A DNA stretch of 64,000 bases from Acidimicrobiia bacterium. GTDB taxonomy: Bacteria > Actinomycetota > Acidimicrobiia > Spongiisociales > ZC4RG35. The stretch lies in NCBI GenBank assembly GCA_965215185.1, contig OZ244034.1, positions 341,863 through 405,862 on the forward strand. The letters run 5' to 3'. This document shows positions 27,352 to 36,510 of this stretch, in pieces. The translations under genes were made by a program, and so were the position numbers. Each line of letters starts with the position of its first letter. Position 1 is the stretch's first letter. The notes beneath the pieces were generated by a model. The model saw only the letters and a list, made by a program, of their open reading frames with translations, was not told the DNA's origin and did not search any database.

Positions 27352-27690
27352 CTAATCAGTAGTTATCTTAACTCCGAGGAGTGGAGCGTGCTGCTGACAA
27401 CCGTACACGTCCCGATCCCTGGGGCTACCAGAAACCGCTGGTCGTACGATTGTGATCTTGAGGCCTCGAGCTGAATCGTGCCATGCAAGGTTGATTACAT
27501 CGCTCTTGTCGATTCCGTAGCACCGCGAAACCAAAGAATCGGTAATGATGCCCGACATCTTCACTTGACTAAACGCCTCGGCGCTATCAAAAAATACATC
27601 AAAAGTCAGCAAATACGGCCCAGCATTCTTGCTTCTGAGGATGCTTGCGACCTCGCCCAGGGTCGTGTTCATATCAGCTATAGCTCCCAA
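27352..27690 (-). CDS. DUF4387-domain protein (partner of AtuA-like DUF1446 proteins)
   Basis: 112 aa, translationally overlapping the upstream DUF1446 gene. This pairing is a known conserved two-gene module. Confidence 0.55.
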   Translation of the reverse strand: MGAIADMNTTLGEVASILRSKNAGPYLLTFDVFFDSAEAFSQVKMSGIITDSLVSRCYGIDKSDVINLAWHDSARGLKITIVRPAVSGSPRDRDVYGCQQHAPLLGVKITTD

Positions 27691-29038
27691 CAGCTACTTC
27701 AAAACATTCATCTGGCGAGTCGAGAGTCATCAAGTGATGCACGCTGAACTCATAGACCGGCCCGCACGATAGGGTTCCCGGCGCAAGAGGGTATGCCAAG
27801 TTAGCCGCAGTTGCCTTGATACCAGGATACTTGAAGTGATCGATCGATGACCGGACGAAGGCAACGATGGTATCTGCCAGCGTTTGCGACTCAGCGACAA
27901 CCCTGATTAGGAGGCCTACTTCGTGAGCGGGGATTGGGGTGGGTTCTAGATGTCCCATCACTCCATCTCGTCCATACACTACAAAATCGAGATCAAAGTC
28001 GTCACTAAACCGCTGGGCGGTAGCCTCGTGGACGGCGTCGACGATCAAATCAATATTGGATATGAAATACGGATCTCGTGCGCCAGCAATAGTGATCGAA
28101 CGATATCCACGCTGGGTGGCACCCTCGATGAGCACTTCATACCGATCACTCTCGCACCATTCACTCCCGGAGATGTTGACCCACCCATCCTGGGCTTGCT
28201 CGAATTCACTGTTTCCCATCCAGACGTGCCCACCGGGCAAGTACAATCTGGCTGGGTCTGATTCCTCATAAAAGCTTTGGGCGGCGACAGAACGGGGTGA
28301 GCAGACGATGGAGTGTTTGGGCGAGCCGACCGTGAAATGGTCTTCCCTGATTATTCCCGTCATGGACTCGGCGGCACCATGGTCTGCCTCAGAACACATG
28401 GCACCACATTCGAGAATCTGACCCATGTGCCAAGCTAGGCCCTTGGGATAGCCTTCCCTAATCGCCAAAGCAGCAAAAATTGCGGCATCGCAGCTTCGGC
28501 CAGCGATCACGAGATCTGGTTCGAGATCGAGTGCCTCCACTATTTGTTCGACACCCATTAGGCCGACTATGTGAGTCGTTTCTTCGATCGTTTGGACGGA
28601 AAGTTGCTCCTCTGGCCCCAGACTTCTTATCTTGCCGGCACGGAGTTTTCGCTTGATGTAATCCTTGTGCAGCTCTGAACGAACGGTTGCGATGCGGAGG
28701 CTCCATCCACACTCACGAGCAATTTCGTGGGCGATGTCAAGCATCCATTCGATCCCAAAGTCAGACCCGGACGTTCCAGCGGAGCCGATAACCACGGGAA
28801 TGCGCCGTGAGCGGCTGGCAGTCAGAATCCTGCCTAGGTCGTCGGCCGTTGTGGATCGTGCTGCCTCCACAATGCCCCCACCCAGATTGTGTGGACCAGA
28901 GTCTGTTGAGCCTGCATCAATTCCTATGACGTGCGGGTTCAGAGCTAAGTTCATTTCGAAGCTGTCATCAGGGAATCCGAAACCCAGCATGCCCGTAGGG
29001 ACTAGAGTCCGTAGCTCTCGACTTGCCCTGTGGACCAT
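27674..29038 (-). CDS. acyclic-terpene-utilisation AtuA-like protein (DUF1446)
   Basis: 454 aa, about the right length. It has an N-terminal 'LGFGFP' region and is partnered with DUF4387 immediately downstream. Confidence 0.6.
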   Translation of the reverse strand: MVHRASRELRTLVPTGMLGFGFPDDSFEMNLALNPHVIGIDAGSTDSGPHNLGGGIVEAARSTTADDLGRILTASRSRRIPVVIGSAGTSGSDFGIEWMLDIAHEIARECGWSLRIATVRSELHKDYIKRKLRAGKIRSLGPEEQLSVQTIEETTHIVGLMGVEQIVEALDLEPDLVIAGRSCDAAIFAALAIREGYPKGLAWHMGQILECGAMCSEADHGAAESMTGIIREDHFTVGSPKHSIVCSPRSVAAQSFYEESDPARLYLPGGHVWMGNSEFEQAQDGWVNISGSEWCESDRYEVLIEGATQRGYRSITIAGARDPYFISNIDLIVDAVHEATAQRFSDDFDLDFVVYGRDGVMGHLEPTPIPAHEVGLLIRVVAESQTLADTIVAFVRSSIDHFKYPGIKATAANLAYPLAPGTLSCGPVYEFSVHHLMTLDSPDECFEVAVGSYS

Positions 29039-29096
29039 TTCTCTCCTCTGCCGATCCGCACTCCGTCTTTGGTGTGCCAGTTACTATAGCGGCTCT

Positions 29097-29853
29097 TCGA
29101 TGCTCCTATGGTTGTCAAATCGATGCTTCTATGTTTGCCAAATCGAGTTTTTGGGGTCGGGGTTTAGTTTGGCCGGTTTAGGGGGTTTGGGGTGTTGGTG
29201 GTGGGTTTTGGAGGAGTCGATGCTCCTATGTTTTGCAAATCGGGTTCTGGTGGGTGAGCCAGTGGTGGTATCGGGTGGCGAGTTGATGGTTGTGGTATAG
29301 GCCTCGTTCGAGTTGTGAGAGGCGTGTTGGCTGGGTGTGGAGGGCTGTGGCGGCGTGAGTGAGCGATGTTTGGGTGTTTTGGCGTAGGCAGCGGAGATGG
29401 GCGCCGTTGGGTGTTTGGGGCGGGTTGGTCAACAGTTGGTAGACCTGGCGGGCAATGTAGATGCTCCTATGGTTGTCAAATCGAGTTTTGGTGGGGTGTG
29501 AGGGCGGTGAGCCATTGGTGGTATTGGGTGGCGAGTTGGTGGTTGTGGTATAGGCCTCGTTCGAGTTGTGAGATGCGGTTGGGGTGGGTTTGTAGGGCGG
29601 TGGCGGCGTGGGTGAGGGTTGTTAGCGCGTTTTTGCGTAGACAGCGAAGATGGGCGCCGTTGGGGGTTTCGGGTGGGTTGGTGAGCAGGTGGTAGATCTC
29701 CCGGGCGATGTGGCGTTTTAGGCAGCGGATGATCTCCCGGCGGTTTTTGCCTTCTGTTTGTCTTTTTTGGGCGTAGGCGATGGTGGTCTGGTCGTAGCGC
29801 ATGCGGGTGATGGCGATCCGCCACAGGGATGCTTCTATGATTTCCAAATCGAG
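29097..29853. repeat. five dispersed copies of a ~26-nt motif GATGCT(C/T)CTATG(G/T/A)TT(G/T)(T/C)CAAATCG(A/G)G that mark the junctions of truncated IS110 3'-end copies
   Basis: Copies at 29099-29123, 29124-29150, 29219-29246, 29460-29486 and 29828-29853, each followed by G/T-rich sequence. Confidence 0.6.
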
Positions 29854-29900
29854 TTTTTGGGGTCGGGGTGACCAACAGGGCAGCGGCTTGTTTGGCGGGT

Positions 29901-31021
29901 TTAGGGGGTTCGGGGTGTTGGTGGTGGGTTTTCGAGTAGTCGGTAGAGGTGGCGGGCGATGTACCGTTTGAGGCAGCGGCGGGTTTCGCGGGTGGTTTTT
30001 CCTTGGGCGGTGCGTTTGGCGATGTAGGCCCGGGTTTTGGGACAGTGTCGGGTGCGGGTGATGGCGATGGTGTGGAGGGCTCGGTTTAGTTGGCGGTCAC
30101 CGCGTCGGTTTAGTCGGTGGCGGGTTTGTTGTCCTGAGGAGGCTTGGAGGGGGGCTACGCCGGCCAGGCGAGCGAAGGCGGCTTCGTTGCGGTATCGGCC
30201 TGGGTGGGACCAGGCGATGTAGATTTGTGCGGCGGTGATGGGGCCTATCCCGGGTTGGTCGAGCAGCTGGGGAGCGACGGTTTCGACCAGTTTGGCGATG
30301 GGTGTTTGCAGTTCTGCTATTTCGGTGGTGAGCGTGCGGATACGCCGGGCTACAGATCGCATGGCCATTTTGGTGGCGGTGTGTTCGTTTCGGGAACCAG
30401 GGGTTGGTTGACTCGGTCGGAACTTGTGGCACTTGGTGATCAAAGCGGTGGTGGTGAGACTTCGGAGTTGGTCTCTGAGATCGACCGGCGCGGTTACTAC
30501 CAGGGCTTTGAGCGCGTTATGGCTGCTATCCGGGCGGTTTGGGCGCCTTGGCGGGTGGTTTCCAGTACTCGGAGGGCTTCTCGGTCTCCCCGAGCGCGGG
30601 GTACCGAAGGCCGGCGTCCCAGCGCCTGGCGGGCGGCTCGTCGAGCGTCCAGCGCGTCGGTTTTGGCGCCGTCGCGGGTCGGGTAGGGATGGTTGAACTC
30701 TATTACCCACTCGCCAGCAGCGCCAAGATAGGTGGCGGCCCCTGTTCCGTAGCTGTCGGCGCCTTCCACCGCCCACGCCCGTTCTGCGGATGTGTGCTGG
30801 TTTGCCCACTCCAACATCTGGGCATATCCGCCGCTGGTTGTCCCAAACCGTGCGGACGCCAACTCTGCGGTGGTGGAAGCGTCCACCACCGACGCGGTTA
30901 CCCAATCACGATCAGGATCGATCCCGATCACATGGTCTACCATTGTGGCCAACATAAGAAAACCTTCTCTTTCTTGTGAAACTGGGCTGTTCGCCTCACG
31001 AGGCGCAAACCGTGACGGCAA
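29901..31021 (-). CDS. IS110-family transposase, copy c (complete C-terminus; DEDD N-domain and C-domain in different frames, so frameshifted or pseudogene)
   Basis: ORF 30497-31021 = 'MLATMVDHVIGIDPDRDWVTASVVD...' (N-domain). ORF 29901-30905 carries '...LKALVVTAPVDLRDQLR...AARLAGVAPLQASSGQQTRHRLNRRGDRQLNRALHTIAITR...' in another frame. Confidence 0.75.
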
Positions 31022-31136
31022 GACTGTGATGGGTCACACCAATTTTGGTGGACAAGCTTCTGATCAGGCCAGCAACGCAAACGCCCAGAAGGCGCAGTGG
31101 GCGGTATCGGACATATCCCTATAAAAGACACAACGG

Positions 31137-32171
31137 TCATGGTTGTTGTGGGTCACGACACCGCCTACTGACGCCTATCCTGGCAACCTCTAAGGAGGCT
31201 CCCCTAATACTCACAGCGTTGTTGGCTTGGCGGTCGCCGCCCCGGTTGAGCCGGTGGCGTATGGTCCGTCCCGACGACGCCTGGACGGGACTGGCGCCGC
31301 ACAATGCTGCGAAGGACGCTTCCGATTGCATGCGTTCGGGGTTGTCACCAGCGGTGACCAACAGGGCAGCGGCGGTGTCGGCGCCGACTCTGGAGGCGGC
31401 TAACAGCGCCGGGTTGACCTGGGCGCAGAGATGGTTGATCTGGGTGGTGAGTTCTTCGATCTCGGCGGTGAGCGCCTGATATCGGCGGGCCAGGGAACGC
31501 AGCGCCTTTTTGGCGTAGGTGACGGTGATGGTGGCTGTTCGGGGACGGAAACCGGCGCAGGCCTTGACGCGGGCTTTGGCCGGCAGTCTCTCTAGCTGGT
31601 GTTTGACCTGGTCGGGGGCGGTTACCACCAAAGCGTGCAGCTGGTTTATGGCCTGGGTGCGGGCTTTGGTCGCCGAACGGCGGGCCACCGAAAGCATCCG
31701 TATTGCTTCCACCCGACCGTTGCCGCTTTTGGGCACTGCGGTGGCCTGTCCGTTGAGAACCGCCCGTGCCGCTCCTTGGGCGTCGGTGGCGTCGGTCTTG
31801 CCCAACCGGCGGCGCAGCTGCCGGTTGGGACGGTTCACCTCTGTCACCTCGACACCGGCCTCGGTTAGATAACGGGCCAGGCCGGCGCCGTAACTGCCGG
31901 TGCCCTCTATACCGACCCGGACCACTCGACCGTGTGACCCCAACCAGTCGCCCAGTTGCTGATAACCGGCCGTGTCGGCCACGAAGGAGGCTGTTCCCAG
32001 GACCCGACCGGTGCTGTCCACCACCGCCGCCATGTGAACATCCCGGTGGGTGTCCACCCCACCGCACACATCTACCTGCTGACCTACTGACATGAACAAT
32101 CCTCCTTGGATAGAATTCTGGCTAATCACCCAGACCCGGTGGCGGGTGGACAGATCAAGCCAAAGGCACAA
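31137..32171 (-). CDS. IS110-family transposase, copy b (divergent paralogue; C-terminus cut after 'RLNRGGDRQAN' by copy c)
   Basis: 'MSVGQQVDVCGGVDTHRDVHMAAVVD...SFAALCGASPVQASSGRTIRHRLNRGGDRQAN'. The final ~60 residues of a normal IS110 transposase are missing, and the next copy's left end starts there. Confidence 0.8.
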   Translation of the reverse strand: MCLWLDLSTRHRVWVISQNSIQGGLFMSVGQQVDVCGGVDTHRDVHMAAVVDSTGRVLGTASFVADTAGYQQLGDWLGSHGRVVRVGIEGTGSYGAGLARYLTEAGVEVTEVNRPNRQLRRRLGKTDATDAQGAARAVLNGQATAVPKSGNGRVEAIRMLSVARRSATKARTQAINQLHALVVTAPDQVKHQLERLPAKARVKACAGFRPRTATITVTYAKKALRSLARRYQALTAEIEELTTQINHLCAQVNPALLAASRVGADTAAALLVTAGDNPERMQSEASFAALCGASPVQASSGRTIRHRLNRGGDRQANNAVSIRGASLEVARIGVSRRCRDPQQP

Positions 32172-32216
32172 CGGCCAGGTTGAGTTTGGGTCAGACCTGC
32201 CCCGGCCTAGGGGCCC

Positions 32217-33101
32217 TTACAAGTATGAGTGGTTGAGTTGGCGGTCGCCTCGTCGGTTGAGTCGGTGGCGGGTGTGTTGCCCCGAAGACGCTTGGAGAGG
32301 GGCTACGCCGGCCAGGCGAGCGAAGGCGGCTTCGTTGCGGCAGCGGCCTGGGTGGGACCAGGCGATGAGCACTTGGGCGGCGGTGATGGGACCTACCCCG
32401 CGCTGGTTCAGCAGTTGCGGAGCTGCGGCTGTGATCATTTCGGCGATGGGCGTTTTCAGCTCTGCTATTTCATTGTTGAGGTTGCGGATGCGTCTGGCTG
32501 TAGAACGTAGGGCTTGTTTGGTGGCGGTGAGTTCGTTGACGGGTGCGGGTGGGATTCGAAACACCGAGCATTTGGCCACCAGAGCAGTTGTGCTCAGACC
32601 TCGGAGTTGGTCCCGAAGATCGACCGGAGCGGTTACTACCAGGGCTTTTAGCTGGTTGATCGCCGATACTCTGGCCCCTTGGGCGCCCTGGCGGGTGGTT
32701 TCCAACACTCGCAAGGCTTCGCGGTCTCCCCTGGCCCGCGGTACGGATGGCCACGGGCGGCCCAGCACTTGGCGGGCGGCCCGGCGGGCGTCCAGTGCGT
32801 CGGGTTTGGCGCCGTCGCGGGTCGGGGCGGGATCGTTGAACTCTTTCACCAGTTCCCCTCGGGCGATAAGGTAACCGGTCACGCCGGCTCCGTAACTGCC
32901 CGAGCCTTCCACCGACCACACTCGACCGGCGGCCTGGGTGTGCTGGTCGGCCCATTTCAACAACCGGTCATACCCTGACCGGGTGGTTCCGAACACTCCG
33001 GATGCTTGTTCTCCGGTAGTGGCGGTGTCAACTACTGAGGCGGTGACTCGGTCCCGATCAGGATCGATCCCGATCACATGCTTTACCATTGTGGCCAACA
33101 T
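32217..33101 (-). CDS. IS110-family transposase, copy a (C-terminus cut after 'RLNRRGDRQLN' by copy b)
   Basis: 294 aa from 'MLATMVKHVIGIDPDRDRVTASVVD' to '...HRLNRRGDRQLNHSYL*'. In the ORF track it is read through from the upstream host gene as one 685-aa ORF. Confidence 0.8.
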   Translation of the reverse strand: MLATMVKHVIGIDPDRDRVTASVVDTATTGEQASGVFGTTRSGYDRLLKWADQHTQAAGRVWSVEGSGSYGAGVTGYLIARGELVKEFNDPAPTRDGAKPDALDARRAARQVLGRPWPSVPRARGDREALRVLETTRQGAQGARVSAINQLKALVVTAPVDLRDQLRGLSTTALVAKCSVFRIPPAPVNELTATKQALRSTARRIRNLNNEIAELKTPIAEMITAAAPQLLNQRGVGPITAAQVLIAWSHPGRCRNEAAFARLAGVAPLQASSGQHTRHRLNRRGDRQLNHSYL

Positions 33102-33365
33102 AAGAAACCTTCTCTTTCTTGTGCGAACTGGGCTGGTGCCTCGCAAGGCGCAAACCGTGACGGCAGGACTGTGACGGGTCACACCCTGTGGGTGGACAGG
33201 CTTCTGATCAGGCCAGCAACGGAACGCCCAGGGGCGTCGCGGCGGTGTCGGACATATCAAGTCAAAGAAACAAAGGTCAGAGTGGCCTCGGGTCACGACA
33301 CCACCGCTGACGCCAATCCTGGCAGCCTCTACAAGGCCCCCCAATACCCACAGAGCGGCCTGTGA

Positions 33366-34274
33366 CTCCAGCTCCAGCAGGGTTTTTTGGTGTGGTGTGG
33401 CGGCAATCTCCCTTGCCGAGCGATTGGCCAGGGCTTGTGGAAGATCAGCCAGAAGATCCGGCTGCTGGCCGGCTGCCGGTGGGGAATAGCCACCCAACAG
33501 CCTTAACACGGTTCCAAGTTCCATGTACTCCCCATCGCCCAAAGCGATGTTTCTTTCCCCACACAGAGCTACCCCTCCTGCTCCTATGACGCTTAGTTCT
33601 CCTTTTCCGAAGTCGATCACCGCCACGGTGTGTTCATCCACTCCGATTATGCCCAAACCGGCGGGAAGCATGGCTTTCAGCAGTTCAAATCGCCGGCGCC
33701 CCATGTAGCACCGGCTCGTGTCGAAGCCCTGGCCCTCGGTGTTGTTCCAGTGTGGAATGAACACCGCCTCCAGGCCCAGATGGGAGGTGAGGTCCAATCC
33801 TTCCAGCCACCCCAGCCCGGAGCCCACTTTGTAGATCTCGTAGACGGGAAGAGTCTTCACTCCGGCCGTGAGGGCGGCGGCCGACGCCACTGTCACGGTG
33901 GCGCCAGTCGAGAGAAGATCTCGCAGCGCCGAGGCCAGCGGCGTCTCTTTCCACACTCCCAAGGCATAGGTAGGCGATCCCGGTCCGGCGAAGACGTAAC
34001 GGGCGCGGCGGACGGCGGCCAGCATCTCTTCGCAGGCGAGGGCGCCCGCTTCGGCAGAGCGGTAGGAGACCACCCCCGCCTCTATGGACAGGCTGGTGGT
34101 GAAAAAGGTAGCCAGCTTTTCGGAATTGAGGGTGGCGTTCTCCTGGAATCCGTAGGGGGTGTCGAGCACCAGCACTTGATGGGCCTTGGCCGCTTCGATC
34201 CCCAGCCGATGGGCAGCTAGCAGCCGATTGGAGGTCTCTCCAGATCCCATGAGAATCAGGCGTCCCGCTCTCAA
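33366..34274 (-). CDS. GATase1-like/peptidase S51 (cyanophycinase-like) family protein, 3' end disrupted by IS110 copy a
   Basis: N-terminal ~300 aa 'MRAGRLILMGSGETSNRLL...VLVLDTPYGFQ...' reads with no stop into the IS110 left end. The family call is weak. Confidence 0.3.
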
Positions 34275-35129
34275 AAGGACGACTCCTCGGCCAGTCCCTC
34301 AAGCCAACCGGCGGTCAGCCGTGGATATTGGGCATGCAGGTCATGATGGGCGTCCAGCCAGATAACCCGGCCTCTGGGAAGGAGGTCTACAAAGCGGGAG
34401 ACGCTTTCTCGCTTGGCGGCTCTCCTGGCAACGGTCTGGGCAGTAGCCACTACCAAGACCGGGCATCGGAGGTGAGGTGCGATCATGCAGGGCTGGTGCT
34501 TCCACATCTCATGTAGCAGTCGAAAATGGTTTTCTCTCTTCAGGTGTGGACCAGCCGTTCCGTCTGGCGCCACTACGAAGTTGGCTAGTTGTCCCCGTAC
34601 ACCGCTTTCAGGCCAACCCGAGAAGTGTTTCCGAAGTTTTCGCTCCAGATCGGAGTGGAGGACTCCGTCAAAGGAAGGGGGGGCAAGTTCCCGGGCGGTG
34701 GTCTCCCAGTCGGGAAGGGATCTGCTCAAAGTAATGAACCCCCCGTCTATGCAGGCAAAGGGCGGCAATGCGACGCCGGTAGCGGTGGGCAAGCTCCAGC
34801 ACCACGTTCCCTCCCAAGGACTGCCCTGCCGCGATAACCGGCAACTCGGGTTGAAATGTTTTCTCGATCACCTCAACCAGATCTTCGGCCAAAGTGGCGA
34901 AGTCGAAGGGTCCGTCCACCTTGTCTGACCGTCCGTGGGAGCGCTGATCCACAGCCACCGAGAAGTAGCCTCTCGCCGCCAGGTACTCGGCGACCCCATC
35001 CCATAGGCGTGCGTTGGAGGCCAGTCCATGCACCAGCAAGAAGGCCATCGGTCGAGAACCCGAGCGGACCACTGTGCTGAGACCAACCCCCTTTTTGGTA
35101 ATGATGCGCCTCCGCAGGGGCTCTTTCAT
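34271..35129 (-). pseudogene. alpha/beta-hydrolase split by a frameshift
   Basis: ORF 34668-35129 = 'FLLVHGLASNARLWDGVAEYLAARGYFSVAVDQRSHGRSD...AAGQSLGGNVV' (nucleophile elbow GxSxG). ORF 34271-34792, in another frame, carries the C-terminal 'VIWLDAHHDLHAQYP' (catalytic His region). Confidence 0.55.
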
Positions 35130-35214
35130 AGGTTGGTTCCGCCTTTTGTCCCTTCATTCACCCCGGCAACTATGAGTACCAAACATGAGAGAACCATGAG
35201 ATTTACCCTACCCG

Positions 35215-36510
35215 GTGGGTGGGGTAAGATATGTGCCTGTGACAGCCACCATCGTGTTAGGCGCACAGTGGGGCGACGAGGGGAAGGGCCGGGTAACCGA
35301 TTTTTTCGCGAAGTCCGCTGATTTTGTCGTCCGCTATCAGGGAGGGAACAATGCCGGCCATACCATCACCATTGGCGACCGCGTCTATGCACTCTCGGTG
35401 GTCCCTTCCGGGGTGATGTACCCAGGGTGCGTGCCGGTGATTGCCTCGGGCTGTGTGCTGGACCCGGTGGTCCTACTGGAAGAATTGGACATGCTTACCC
35501 ATGAAGGGATCAGCCCCGAGCGCCTCCGCATCTCTTCCAATGCTCATCTGATCATGCCCTATCACCGGGTGCTGGATGGGATAATGGAGCGTTACCTGGG
35601 ACGCAACCGAATCGGCACCACCAAACGGGGAATAGGTCCCGCTTACACCGACAAGTACTCCCGAGTGGGAATCCGCGTTCAGGACCTTTTTGATCCCCGG
35701 ATCTTCCGGGAGAAAGTGGAAGCGGCCCTGGTAGACAAGAACAAGATACTCACCCGGGTTTACAACCGTCTTCCCATGGGCCCCGAGGAAATAGCCACCC
35801 AGTATCTGGAGATGGCCGAGCGCCTCCTACCCTATGTCACCGACACTTCGCTTCTCCTGTGGAATGCGATTGCCGAGGGGCGACAGGTGCTATTCGAAGG
35901 CGCCCAGGGGACGCTATTGGATATCGATCACGGCACCTATCCCTTTGTCACTTCGTCCAATCCCACGGCTGGGGGAGCGTTGATCGGCGCTGGACTAGGT
36001 CCCACAGCGATAGACGCGGTAGTCGGGGTGGCCAAGGCCTATATCTCCCGGGTGGGCAGCGGGCCGTTTCCTACCGAGTTGTCTGACGGGGTGGGGGATT
36101 GGCTGGTGGACCAAGGTCGGGAGTACGGCACGGTAACCGGCCGCCGGAGACGCTGTGGGTGGCTCGACCTGGTGGCCCTCCGCTACGCGGCCAGGATCAA
36201 TGGGTTGACTCAGCTGTTCATCACCAAGCTGGATATTCTCTCCGGTCTGGATACTTTGCGGGTGGCAGTGGGCTATGAGGGTGAGGGACAAAGCTATTCG
36301 GAGTTTCCCCGCCAGCAGCGGGTCCTGTACAAGTGCACCCCGGTGTATGAAGAGCTTGAAGGGTGGTCGCAAGACATAACCGGGGCAAGACGTTTCGAAG
36401 ACTTCCCTGCGGCCGCTCGTCGCTATATAAGGTTCATCGAGGAGGCAGTGGGAGTCCCGGTGGCATGGGTCTCGGTCGGTCCCGAGCGCAGCCAACTGGT
36501 CATTCGATAG
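35215..36510 (+). CDS. purA: adenylosuccinate synthetase
   Basis: 'GAQWGDEGKGR' P-loop, 'GNNAGHT', and C-terminal 'GWLDLVALRYAARINGLTQLFITKLDIL'. The true start may be the GTG near 35233. Confidence 0.9.
   Translation: MGGVRYVPVTATIVLGAQWGDEGKGRVTDFFAKSADFVVRYQGGNNAGHTITIGDRVYALSVVPSGVMYPGCVPVIASGCVLDPVVLLEELDMLTHEGISPERLRISSNAHLIMPYHRVLDGIMERYLGRNRIGTTKRGIGPAYTDKYSRVGIRVQDLFDPRIFREKVEAALVDKNKILTRVYNRLPMGPEEIATQYLEMAERLLPYVTDTSLLLWNAIAEGRQVLFEGAQGTLLDIDHGTYPFVTSSNPTAGGALIGAGLGPTAIDAVVGVAKAYISRVGSGPFPTELSDGVGDWLVDQGREYGTVTGRRRRCGWLDLVALRYAARINGLTQLFITKLDILSGLDTLRVAVGYEGEGQSYSEFPRQQRVLYKCTPVYEELEGWSQDITGARRFEDFPAAARRYIRFIEEAVGVPVAWVSVGPERSQLVIR

What the first reader, a model, noticed from the sequence alone, without database searches (positions are those of the whole stretch)
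29097..29900. Recurring 26-nt motif plus G/T-rich unit at every truncated IS110 junction, a candidate structured non-coding end (bridge-RNA-like?)
GATGCT(C/T)CTATG(G/T/A)TT(G/T)(T/C)CAAATCG(A/G)G occurs five times (29099, 29124, 29219, 29460, 29828). Each copy is followed by 'ttttggggtcgggg...gggggtttggggtgttggtggtgggtttt'-type sequence, which on the minus strand is the Pro-rich tail and 3' flank of the transposase. In IS110/IS1111 elements the non-coding end encodes an RNA that base-pairs with target and donor DNA. The conservation of this unit across otherwise truncated copies, and its position exactly at junctions, makes it a candidate for that guide/bridge RNA or for the recognised target core.
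Basis: inference. Interest (0 to 1): 0.5.

Follow-up and report, generated by a model that had tools for sequence, protein, structure and literature searches.

The report
Right-end donor site of IS110 elements
The recurring 26-base motif is the conserved right-hand tip of IS110-family jumping genes: one half of a split promoter plus the end sequence that the element's own guide RNA appears to recognise. That guide RNA is encoded at the opposite end of each element, so the finding is ordinary in kind, though it sits in an instructive pile-up of elements that jumped into one another.

Summary
The five motif copies are real: 29099, 29122 (not 29124), 29219, 29460 and 29828, with 0 expected by chance. 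All IS110 genes here lie on the minus strand, where the motif reads CTCGATTTGACAACCATAGGAGCATC and is the last 26 bases of each element's right end (RE).

- **Mobile with the element.** Cutting out 29828-31215 (element c, motif included) restores an intact 409-aa transposase ORF.
- **Widely conserved.** 66 of 80 related loci from several phyla end in C-TTGACA-n3/4-ATAGGAGCATC, and conservation stops at the next base.
- **Not the bridge RNA.** The motif region folds no better than shuffled sequence. A covariance model built from other genomes hits only the left ends (31012-31167, 32113-32205, 33157-33307).
- **Seen by that RNA.** The donor loop of the left-end RNA carries a copy of ATAG(G/A)AGC that co-varies with the RE. 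Its target loop matches each element's own flanks.
- **Split promoter.** TTGACA is a -35 box. Joined to the left end it gives TTGACA-17/18-nAnnnT in 25 of 32 simulated circle junctions, and in none of the integrated contexts tested.

The G/T-rich unit follows only 2 of 5 copies. The stacked truncated ends reflect guide-directed insertion of sibling elements into each other's transposase genes, probably followed by recombinational collapse. The kind is known; these are new members.

The parts
29099..29121 (-). Solo 23-nt right-end unit (GATTTGACAACCATAGGAGCATC), b-type sequence; it is the last IS-derived bases before host DNA upstream of the AtuA-family gene (27674-29038, minus strand).
   Evidence: It is 23/23 identical to the RE at 29460. 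The same unit closes a three-unit tandem array in two other assemblies that carry the identical AtuA-family protein upstream region.
29122..29218 (-). 97-nt 3' fragment of a c/d-type element (starts at ..RLLQNPPPTPQTP*), ending in motif copy 29122-29147. Contains the G/T-rich unit on the + strand.
   Evidence: (D12).
29219..29459 (-). 241-nt 3' fragment 'a' of a b-type element (starts YIARQVYQLL..., with an HTH-like tail), ending in motif copy 29219-29244.
   Evidence: (D2).
29460..29827 (-). Right part of b-type element b' (LWRIAITRMRYD... to the stop), ending in motif copy 29460-29485. Within the motif: -35 TTGACA = 29474-29479; donor half-site ATAGGAGCATC = 29460-29470. The transposase stop codon TGA lies inside TTGACA.
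29828..31215 (-). Element c, 1388 bp, complete but with a frameshifted transposase. RE motif 29828-29853 (donor half 29828-29838; degenerate -35 TTGGAA 29842-29847). Transposase pseudogene 29901-30955. LE 30956-31215.
   Evidence: Removing exactly these bases restores a 409-aa ORF that aligns without a gap across the junction to an intact homologue, 84% identical. Pfam DEDD_Tnp_IS110 plus Transposase_20.
31012..31167 (-). Predicted bridge RNA of element c. LTG 31140-31149, RTG+GAU 31115-31127, LDG 31056-31065, RDG 31022-31031. The -10-like GAGTAT of the split promoter is at 31207-31212.
   Evidence: Covariance-model hit of 42.4 bits, E about 1e-8. The LE folds with z = -3.70, 0 of 200 shuffles as good. 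Coordinates.
31216..32230 (-). Left part of b-type element b': transposase 5' part 31216-32093 and LE 32094-32230. The bridge-RNA remnant is at 32113-32205; an internal ~100-nt deletion between two CTGTC repeats removed the donor loop.
   Evidence: The b' LTG AAACTCAACC matches its left flank CAACTCAACC at 9/10.
32231..33352 (-). Left part of c/d-type element d: transposase 5' part cut after GDRQLN, LE 33102-33352, predicted bridge RNA 33157-33307. It is inserted in a host ORF whose N-terminal part runs from 34274 down to 33353.
   Evidence: (46.4 bits, E about 1e-9). The d LTG GAGGCCACTC matches the host flank CAGGCCGCTC at 8/10.

Best explanation
The motif is the right-end (RE) terminus of IS110-group insertion sequences that use a bridge RNA.

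Read on the coding (minus) strand it is C-TTGACA-n3/4-ATA-GGAGC-ATC, and it holds two functional modules.
1. **Donor half-site.** The last 11 bases are the left-donor half-site: a short subterminal ATA, the left-donor bases, and the crossover base(s) at the terminal C. The donor-binding loop of the element's bridge RNA, which is encoded in the left end (LE), carries the same 8-mer ATAGGAGC. It would therefore pair with the bottom strand of this site.
2. **Half of a split promoter.** TTGACA, 15-20 bases from the tip, is the -35 box. When the element circularises, RE joins LE. That places a conserved nAnnnT -10 hexamer 17-18 bp downstream, so the junction would drive the bridge RNA and the transposase. 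In the integrated state the box has no -10 partner.

The motif recurs at 'truncated junctions' because this locus is a nest of sibling elements.
- Their bridge RNAs are programmed to insert into conserved coding sequence of other IS110 transposase genes.
- Every such insertion puts an intact RE tip against the 3' remainder of the resident element.
- Homologous recombination between directly repeated copies then probably removed the matching left halves. What remains is a stack of 3' fragments (368, 241, 97 and 23 nt), each still capped by its RE tip.

**Shown by sequence:** the motif moves with the element; RE conservation across phyla; guide/flank and guide/RE covariation; the location of the structured RNA.
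**Inferred:** promoter activity, RNA expression, and the recombinational collapse.
For: **Motif is the mobile RE tip**
- Five copies against 0 expected.
- Excising 29828-31215 restores an intact ORF.
- 66 of 80 related loci (Acidimicrobiia, Dehalococcoidia, Streptomyces, Frankia, Methylobacterium and others) end in TTGACA-n3/4-ATAGGAGCATC. Base composition is mixed from +1 onward.
- Three ~1.3-kb contigs stop exactly at GCATC and a fourth one base later.

**Bridge RNA is in the LE**
- Model R1 was built without any window, L001 or L002 sequence. It hits only 33157-33307, 32113-32205 and 31012-31167, all on the minus strand.
- The proposed structure is 88% paired, with a covariation score of 0.39 against 0.18 for shuffles (0 of 500 reach it) and at most 0.15 when partners are slid.
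- The LE folds with z = -3.70, while the RE regions give z about 0.

**Guides match their own flanks**
- The LTG matches its own left flank with at most 2 mismatches in 32 of 51 loci, against 2.7% of cross-locus controls.
- The RTG predicts the first bases after GCATC with at most 3 of 8 mismatches in 23 of 41 loci, against 3.5% of controls.

**Donor loop co-varies with the RE**
- The RE variants ATAGAAGC (L027, L059, L080), ATAAGAGC (L075) and ATAGGGGC (L081) are each mirrored in the LE donor loop.
- Window c/d-type REs have ATAGAAGC, and their LE has AU(C)AGAAGC.
- RD/RDG covariation shows up as a pseudo-helix in which 10-14 sequences per pair changed on both sides.

**Split promoter**
- A6 and T10 of the LE are invariant in 33 LEs.
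- 25 of 32 simulated RE+LE junctions reach at least 9/12 with 17-18 bp spacing. None of the same REs does so when joined to its genomic flank.
- No promoter is found in the integrated window region.

**Nest**
- b' LTG 9/10 to the d transposase site.
- c LTG 7/10 and RT 4/5 to the b' site.
- In an independent metagenome contig (L084), a b-type element sits in a sibling's CLK(R)|YIA site with LTG 9/10 and RT 5/6, and the rejoined flanks give an uninterrupted transposase alignment.

**Conventions** for guides, the junction promoter and the ATA/TAT subterminal repeat are from PMC11208160.
Against: - There is no transcript or circle-junction evidence. Promoter and RNA are sequence predictions only.
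- The RE profile comes from loci selected with the motif pattern, so conservation inside the motif is partly circular. The drop at +1 and the contig ends are not.
- The exact core is unresolved. The donor guide matches ATAGGAGC but not the following ATC contiguously. Left flanks mostly end in AC or TC while the RE ends in TC.
- Element c's own target guide mismatches its flank at the two core-proximal positions, and its junction promoter is weak (7/12). c is a decayed copy, or it was moved by a sibling's RNA.
- Junctions J6 (29218/29219) and J7 (29121/29122) cannot be checked against a guide, because the left ends of the inserted elements are gone.
- No element with a guide for the ..AAAACTC|GATTTG site was found.
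Confidence: 0.85

Rival explanations
1. One reading: the motif plus the G/T-rich unit is itself a structured non-coding RNA, a bridge/seek RNA encoded at the right end as in IS1111-group elements.
For: - IS1111-group elements do encode their RNA downstream of the transposase (PMC11208160).
- The unit is conserved between two copies (D12).
Against: - No fold signal: z = 0.03, 0.05, -0.69, +1.05.
- No Rfam hit and no hit of the family covariance model.
- The RE is only 73 nt in c, and essentially absent in the b type, where the ORF stops inside the motif.
- The G/T-rich unit is missing from 3 of 5 copies.
- A well-supported bridge RNA is present in the LE instead.
Confidence: 0.02
2. The motif is a host repeat (REP- or attC-like) that serves as the preferred insertion target, so elements simply pile up next to pre-existing copies.
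For: - The copy nearest host DNA (29099-29121) is not attached to an element body.
- Together with the CTC on the far side of the nest, it would reconstitute a full 26-mer.
- IS110 relatives such as IS621 target REP sequences (PMC11208160).
Against: - The motif travels inside element c into a transposase ORF.
- It ends IS110 elements in unrelated phyla with unrelated flanks.
- The window has no copy outside the nest.
- The solo unit is 23/23 identical to a b-type RE.
Confidence: 0.03
3. TTGACA and the bases around it are conserved as a binding site for the recombinase, or for the HTH-like tail of the b-type protein, rather than as a -35 box.
For: - Many b-type homologues carry a C-terminal HTH_31/HTH_3 domain.
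- Subterminal protein sites are common in other IS families.
Against: - The hexamer equals the sigma-70 -35 consensus.
- It sits at a fixed 17-18 bp from an LE hexamer whose A2 and T6 are invariant.
- In IS621, a 22-bp donor suffices for recombination when the RNA is supplied in trans, and sequences further out matter only for the promoter (PMC11208160).
- c/d-type proteins lack the HTH-like tail yet keep the box.
Confidence: 0.1
4. The stack of 5'-truncated, RE-capped fragments and the 23-nt unit arrays arise from a distinct reaction rather than from full insertions followed by homologous recombination. Candidates are half-match (LD-only) or one-ended 'direct transfer' recombination that deposits only the 3' part of an element.
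For: - Half-match insertion at LD-only or RD-only sites is documented for IS621 (bioRxiv 10.64898/2026.08.31.748434).
- A direct strand-transfer pathway has been proposed (bioRxiv 10.1101/2025.10.25.684509).
- At least three different units are all cut at the same point, C|GATTTG.
- An 11-nt ATAGAAGCATC remnant follows an intact RE in L001, and a ~13-nt CCATAGGAGCATC remnant, preceded by unrelated sequence, sits before a repeat of the RT flank in L005.
Against: - The collapse model is sufficient.
- It has a clear mirror image in L028, where the first 52 nt of the LE (up to the LTG-coding DNA, which by construction equals the target) are tandemly duplicated.
- Two junction pairs in the window (c in b'; b' left flank) and L084 are ordinary guided insertions.
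Confidence: 0.2

Closest known systems
IS621 / IS110-group bridge-RNA recombination system (Durrant et al. 2024, PMC11208160; Hiraizumi et al. 2024, PMC11208158)
   Same: - DEDD plus Tnp-domain recombinase.
- Long LE, short RE, no inverted repeats and no target duplication beyond the core.
- An LE-encoded RNA with a target loop (LTG on the 5' side, RTG on the 3' side) and a donor loop (LDG, RDG).
- Guide sense and strand rules are identical.
- An ATA...TAT subterminal triplet flanks the donor.
- The -35 box is in the RE and the -10 in the LE, so the promoter is rebuilt only in the circle.
   Different: - A different lineage (Actinomycetota, Chloroflexota and others) with only distant protein similarity.
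- The RE tip ATAGGAGCATC is nearly invariant across phyla rather than freely co-varying.
- The core is not the IS621 CT and could not be fixed exactly.
- The b type carries a C-terminal HTH-like extension, and its stop codon lies inside the -35 box.
- Natural targets here are other transposase genes rather than REP elements.
IS1111-group elements and seekRNA (e.g. IS4321/IS5075, IS1111-attC)
   Same: - Same recombinase superfamily.
- RNA-guided, site-specific insertion.
- Some members target other mobile elements (Tn21 inverted repeats, attC sites).
   Different: - IS1111 elements have a long RE that encodes the RNA, and 7-17 bp subterminal inverted repeats.
- Here the RE is 0-73 nt and unstructured.
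- The RNA is in the LE, and the only subterminal repeat is about 3 bp.
Junction (circle) promoters of IS elements such as IS492, IS911 and IS30
   Same: An outward -35 at one end pairs with a -10 at the other end only after the ends are joined.
   Different: In those families the promoter drives the transposase of cut- or copy-out DDE or Piv-like elements. Here it also drives the guide RNA, and its -10 overlaps the right-donor bases.

Membership tests
IS110 family, IS110 group (bridge-RNA elements) | Recombinase with an N-terminal DEDD (RuvC-like) domain and a C-terminal Tnp domain | tested here: met
   - PF01548 plus PF02371 on all three copies.
- NF033542 'IS110 family RNA-guided transposase' scores 206 bits against a cut-off of 140 for the intact b-type protein.
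IS110 family, IS110 group (bridge-RNA elements) | Long non-coding LE, short RE, no terminal inverted repeats, no target duplication beyond the core | tested here: met
   - c: LE 260 nt, RE 73 nt.
- b type: LE about 137-227 nt, and the ORF stops inside the RE tip.
- The c insertion restores the ORF with at most 1 shared base.
- LE and RE share no inverted repeat beyond ATA/TAT.
IS110 family, IS110 group (bridge-RNA elements) | LE-encoded RNA with two internal loops whose guides co-vary with target flanks and with donor ends | tested here: met
   - Structure covariation.
- LTG and RTG against own flanks versus cross-locus controls.
- LDG against RE variants.
- RD/RDG compensatory changes.
- Independent covariance-model hits in the window's LEs.
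IS110 family, IS110 group (bridge-RNA elements) | RE-LE junction reconstitutes a sigma-70 promoter (-35 in the RE) | tested here: met
   Tested by sequence only.
- 25 of 32 simulated junctions pass, against 0 integrated contexts.
- A6 and T10 of the LE are invariant.
- Activity was not measured.
IS110 family, IS110 group (bridge-RNA elements) | Bridge RNA is transcribed and binds the recombinase; a circular intermediate exists | not testable with these tools
   No expression data, binding data or circle-junction reads are available.
IS1111 group (RE-encoded seek/bridge RNA) | Long RE encoding a structured RNA; 7-17 bp subterminal inverted repeats | tested here: not met
   - The RE is 0-73 nt with fold z about 0.
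- There is no covariance-model or Rfam hit in the RE.
- No long subterminal inverted repeat is present.
Rfam-curated RNA families | Match to any of the 4227 covariance models | tested here: not met
   0 matches at E up to 10 over 27500-35500, both strands.

The most novel reading that the evidence does not exclude
In this sponge-associated Acidimicrobiia lineage, IS110 elements are systematically programmed to insert into conserved coding sequence of rival IS110 and other transposase genes. The tandem 23-nt RE-tip units (each carrying an outward -35 box) that accumulate upstream of a host gene would then be footprints of a recurrent site-specific event at ..AAAACTC|GATTTG. That event could be either an as-yet-unseen guide specificity or natural half-match / one-ended bridge recombination. 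If so, such arrays would be a readable genomic record of off-pathway bridge-recombinase reactions in nature.
Probability: 0.2. Interest if true: 0.55.

Novelty: new member of a known kind. Interest (0 to 1): 0.3.

Why it matters
**For annotation**
- It fixes the boundaries of three nested IS110 elements.
- It locates their bridge RNAs, which Rfam does not detect.
- It explains five orphan -35 boxes that point toward the AtuA-family gene.

**For the field**
- It adds a large, phylogenetically broad IS110 subgroup. The right-end tip, split promoter and four guide segments can be read directly from sequence.
- It supplies natural examples of guide-verified insertion into sibling transposase genes: c into b', b' into d, and L084.
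- These elements are candidate programmable recombinases from high-GC hosts.

**Open point**
The RE-tip and LE-tip tandem scars may be useful markers of past tandem or half-match events. This remains a hypothesis.

Tried and rejected
- **Rfam** E-value scan of 27500-35500: no hits.
- **Full-text search** for the motif string: only unrelated primer matches.
- **Promoter scan** of the integrated region 28980-29900: no complete promoter. The -35 boxes are therefore orphans, and a hybrid promoter for the AtuA-family gene is not supported.
- **Terminal inverted repeat:** rejected, because LE and RE share only ATA/TAT.
- **Fixing the core dinucleotide:**
  - An IS621-like CT core spanning GCATC|N was rejected, because the base after GCATC is variable and pairs with the RTG.
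  - TC inside GCATC fits d and the L002 element, but most left flanks end in AC. This is left unresolved.
- **Explaining J5-J7 with guides of elements still present** (c, d, b', the L001 b type, the L002 element): no convincing match. The best is the L002-element LTG against AAAACTC, 6 of 7.
- **Metagenome scan for RE-plus-unit arrays**: it returned no arrays, but it yielded the L084 insertion example.
- **How common is IS110-in-IS110 insertion?** It was seen in 0 of 30 genome-collection loci with defined ends. It is lineage-specific rather than general.
- **Pfam** on the interrupted host ORF (33353-34274) and on the L005 flank: no hit.
- **Two further contig look-ups** gave one place each, so they did not supply extra guide specificities.

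Full report
**1. Observation**

The degenerate 26-mer occurs five times on the + strand, at 29099, 29122, 29219, 29460 and 29828. Shuffled sequence gives none, and there is no other copy in the 64 kb window at up to three mismatches. Copies 1 and 2 overlap by three bases, so copy 1 is a 23-nt unit. The G/T-rich unit follows only the copies at 29122 and 29828. The copies at 29219 and 29460 are followed by the antisense of a different transposase C-terminus.

**2. Anatomy**

All IS110 reading frames lie on the minus strand. On that strand the motif reads CTCGATTTGACAACCATAGGAGCATC and always closes the 3' side of an element or element fragment. From high to low coordinates the layout is:

| Coordinates (high to low) | Content |
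|---|---|
| 34274 to 33353 | Host ORF, cut by element d |
| 33352 to 32231 | Left part of c/d-type element d |
| 32230 to 31216 | Left part of b-type element b' |
| 31215 to 29828 | Complete but frameshifted element c |
| 29827 to 29460 | Right part of b' |
| 29459 to 29219 | 241-nt b-type 3' fragment 'a' |
| 29218 to 29122 | 97-nt c/d-type tail |
| 29121 to 29099 | Solo 23-nt unit |
| next ~60 nt | Host DNA, then the start codon of an AtuA-family gene at 29038 |

Left-end boundaries come from aligning c and d and from junction searches.

**3. The motif is part of the mobile unit**

- Deleting exactly 29828-31215 (1388 bp, motif included) joins GDRQANNA to LWRIAITR and restores a 409-aa ORF. 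This ORF aligns without a gap across the junction to an intact homologue from another assembly that carries the identical AtuA-family protein (84% identity).
- A search of one genome per species with a b-type protein alignment returned 80 loci. In 66 of them the element ends in C-TTGACA-n3/4-ATAGGAGCATC, and base composition is mixed from the next position on.
- The hosts include Acidimicrobiia, Dehalococcoidia, Streptomyces, Frankia, Methylobacterium, Novosphingobium and a cyanobacterial MAG.
- Three ~1.3-kb contigs (collapsed repeats) stop exactly at GCATC, and a fourth one base later.
- A host-repeat origin and a terminal inverted repeat are therefore excluded.

**4. Where the bridge RNA is**

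- Rfam gives nothing.
The LE of c has z = -3.70, with 0 of 200 shuffles as stable.
- Aligning 33 LEs and folding the alignment gave a long stem enclosing a large internal loop. A hand-completed structure with a second loop was then tested.
  - It is 88% paired.
  - Its covariation score is 0.39 against 0.18 for shuffles (0 of 500 reach it), and at most 0.15 when partners are slid.
- A covariance model built from 32 of these sequences, with none from the window, L001 or L002, finds three significant matches in the window. All are on the minus strand and all lie in left ends:
  - 33157-33307 (46.4 bits)
  - 32113-32205 (42.8 bits; internally deleted)
  - 31012-31167 (42.4 bits)
- Nothing is found in 29097-29900.

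**5. What the RNA reads**

Strand conventions are those of Durrant et al. (PMC11208160).

- **Left target guide (LTG).** The ten bases after CUGACYC match each element's own left flank with at most two mismatches in 32 of 51 loci, against 2.7% of cross-locus pairs.
- **Right target guide (RTG).** The bases before GAUCUGUC predict the first bases after GCATC with at most three of eight mismatches in 23 of 41 loci, against 3.5% of controls. The target's right half therefore begins immediately after the motif, so the motif's last base marks the crossover.
- **Left donor guide (LDG).** The second loop carries AUAGGAGC, the same sense as the RE tip, as expected for a guide that pairs with the bottom strand. 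RE variants are mirrored there: ATAGAAGC in L027, L059 and L080; ATAAGAGC in L075; ATAGGGGC in L081. Five loci have an unmatched single change.
- **Right donor guide (RDG).** The 3' side of the same loop is complementary to the first bases of the LE, and 10-14 sequences per pair changed on both sides.
- **In the window.** The c/d-type REs have ATAGAAGC and their LE has AU(C)AGAAGC. The b-type RE has ATAGGAGC, as does the intact b-type LE in L001.

The last 11 bases of the motif are therefore the left-donor half-site. The exact core could not be fixed. The donor guide does not pair contiguously with the final ATC, and left flanks end mostly in AC or TC.

**6. The TTGACA box**

- TTGACA lies 15-20 bases from the tip.
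- In the alignment of LEs, positions 6 (A) and 10 (T) are invariant. They are positions 2 and 6 of a hexamer that would sit 17 bp after TTGACA once RE is joined to LE.
- Simulated junctions reach at least 9 of 12 consensus matches, with A2 and T6, in 25 of 32 loci. The same REs joined to their actual genomic flank never do.
- The integrated window region has no complete promoter.
- The b RE at 29460 joined to the b' LE gives TTGACA-17-CATACT (10/12). The decayed element c gives TTGGAA-17-GAGTAT (7/12).
- This matches the split promoter described for IS621. There, removing the -35 box abolishes activity unless the RNA is supplied in trans.
- Promoter function here is inferred, not measured.

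**7. Why RE tips pile up**

- **b' into d.** The b' target guide AAACUCAACC matches its left flank CAACTCAACC in d's transposase gene at 9 of 10. Its RTG predicts AAGCCA, against GAGCCC at that site in the homologous element c.
- **c into b'.** Element c's guides match its site in b' at 7 of 10 (left) and 4 of 5 (right).
- **L084, an independent case.** In metagenome contig L084, a b-type element lies in a sibling's CLK(R)|YIA codons, with LTG 9/10 and RT 5/6. The rejoined flanks give an uninterrupted transposase alignment. This is within two bases of window junction J5 (29459/29460).
- **Interpretation.** These elements are programmed to land in sibling transposase genes, and each landing places an RE tip against a 3' remnant.
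- **Mismatched junction pairs.** Some left and right junctions do not belong to one target: b' left in d but right in 'a'; d left in host but right against a b-type unit. The simplest account is homologous recombination between two directly repeated copies, which deletes what lay between them.
- **A mirror image in L028.** The first 52 nt of the LE, up to the LTG-coding DNA (which by construction equals the target), are tandemly duplicated.
- **The 23-nt units.** There are two in the window and three in L001 and L002. They would arise the same way, after insertion at ..AAAACTC|GATTTG, the last codons of the b-type ORF.
- **Caveat.** No element carrying a guide for that site was found, so this step is a hypothesis. 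Half-match or one-ended reactions remain a live alternative.

**8. Comparison and verdict**

Every sequence-testable defining feature of the IS110 group of bridge-RNA elements is met: domains, end asymmetry, an LE RNA with target and donor loops, guide covariation and a split promoter. The IS1111 features are not met. The motif is not a bridge RNA. It is the donor half-site plus the -35 box of the right end. The kind is known since 2024. The members, their near-invariant RE tip and their habit of targeting sibling transposases are new details.

Interest is modest (0.3). The scar arrays are the only element that might lead further.

Noticed in passing
window 29867-29887 and 31353-31373: A 21-nt exact repeat, GGTGACCAACAGGGCAGCGGC. 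In c's 3' untranslated tail it replaces about 3 nt present in the sibling tail at 29150. It equals a piece of the b' transposase coding sequence (AAALLVT) in the same orientation. It may be a templated patch or a conversion tract; unexplained.
   Followed up: partly
window 29476-29847 and 29226-29459 (minus strand); L001 4253-5470 (minus strand): b-type IS110 transposases carry a ~65-aa C-terminal extension with an XRE/HTH_31-like pattern (LRxLRxx..LT..A..L....IS.LERG......LA..Y..WL). Many of the homologues listed also carry it. The ORF's stop codon TGA is embedded in the RE's TTGACA box.
   Followed up: partly
window 32113-32205 (minus strand): The LE of b' has lost about 100 nt between two CTGTC repeats relative to the intact L001 copy. 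The deletion removes the 3' half of the target loop stem and the whole donor loop, so b' could only move with a sibling's RNA.
   Followed up: partly
L001 9871-9940; L002 2485-2554: Two other assemblies that carry the identical AtuA-family protein hold three tandem 23-nt RE-tip units upstream of that gene. They also show a different arrangement of IS110, IS3-family and inverted b-type copies. The locus is a rearrangement hotspot that differs between the assemblies.
   Followed up: partly
L028 2201-2304: The first 52 nt of an IS110 left end (right-donor bases through the LTG-coding DNA) are tandemly duplicated. The DNA that encodes the left target guide is itself a perfect left-target half-site, so sibling copies can insert there.
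   Followed up: partly
L004 3087-3145; L018 about 2365-2400; L001 7170-7205: More small duplications next to ATAGGAGC-type sequence. L004 has a 35-nt direct repeat containing the RE tip. L018 has a 16-nt tandem duplication inside the donor loop. L001 has an 11-nt ATAGAAGCATC remnant directly after an intact RE.
   Followed up: no
L005 2150-2247; L085 962-2971: Relatives are inserted in other transposase genes: at the 3' end of an ISL3-like gene in L005 (judged from the EGINNLL..GF.N..NF sequence pattern only; Pfam gave no hit), and inside an IS256-family (Transposase_mut) gene in L085.
   Followed up: no
window 33353-34274 (minus strand): A host ORF of about 307 aa is interrupted by element d and has no Pfam hit. 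Its native 3' end is missing or lies beyond the nest, so the insertion probably inactivated it.
   Followed up: partly
window 29901-31021 (minus strand): Element c's transposase is split into two overlapping frames (30497-31021 and 29901-30905) by a frameshift near 30500. Its target guide mismatches its flank at the two core-proximal bases. c is a decaying copy.
   Followed up: partly
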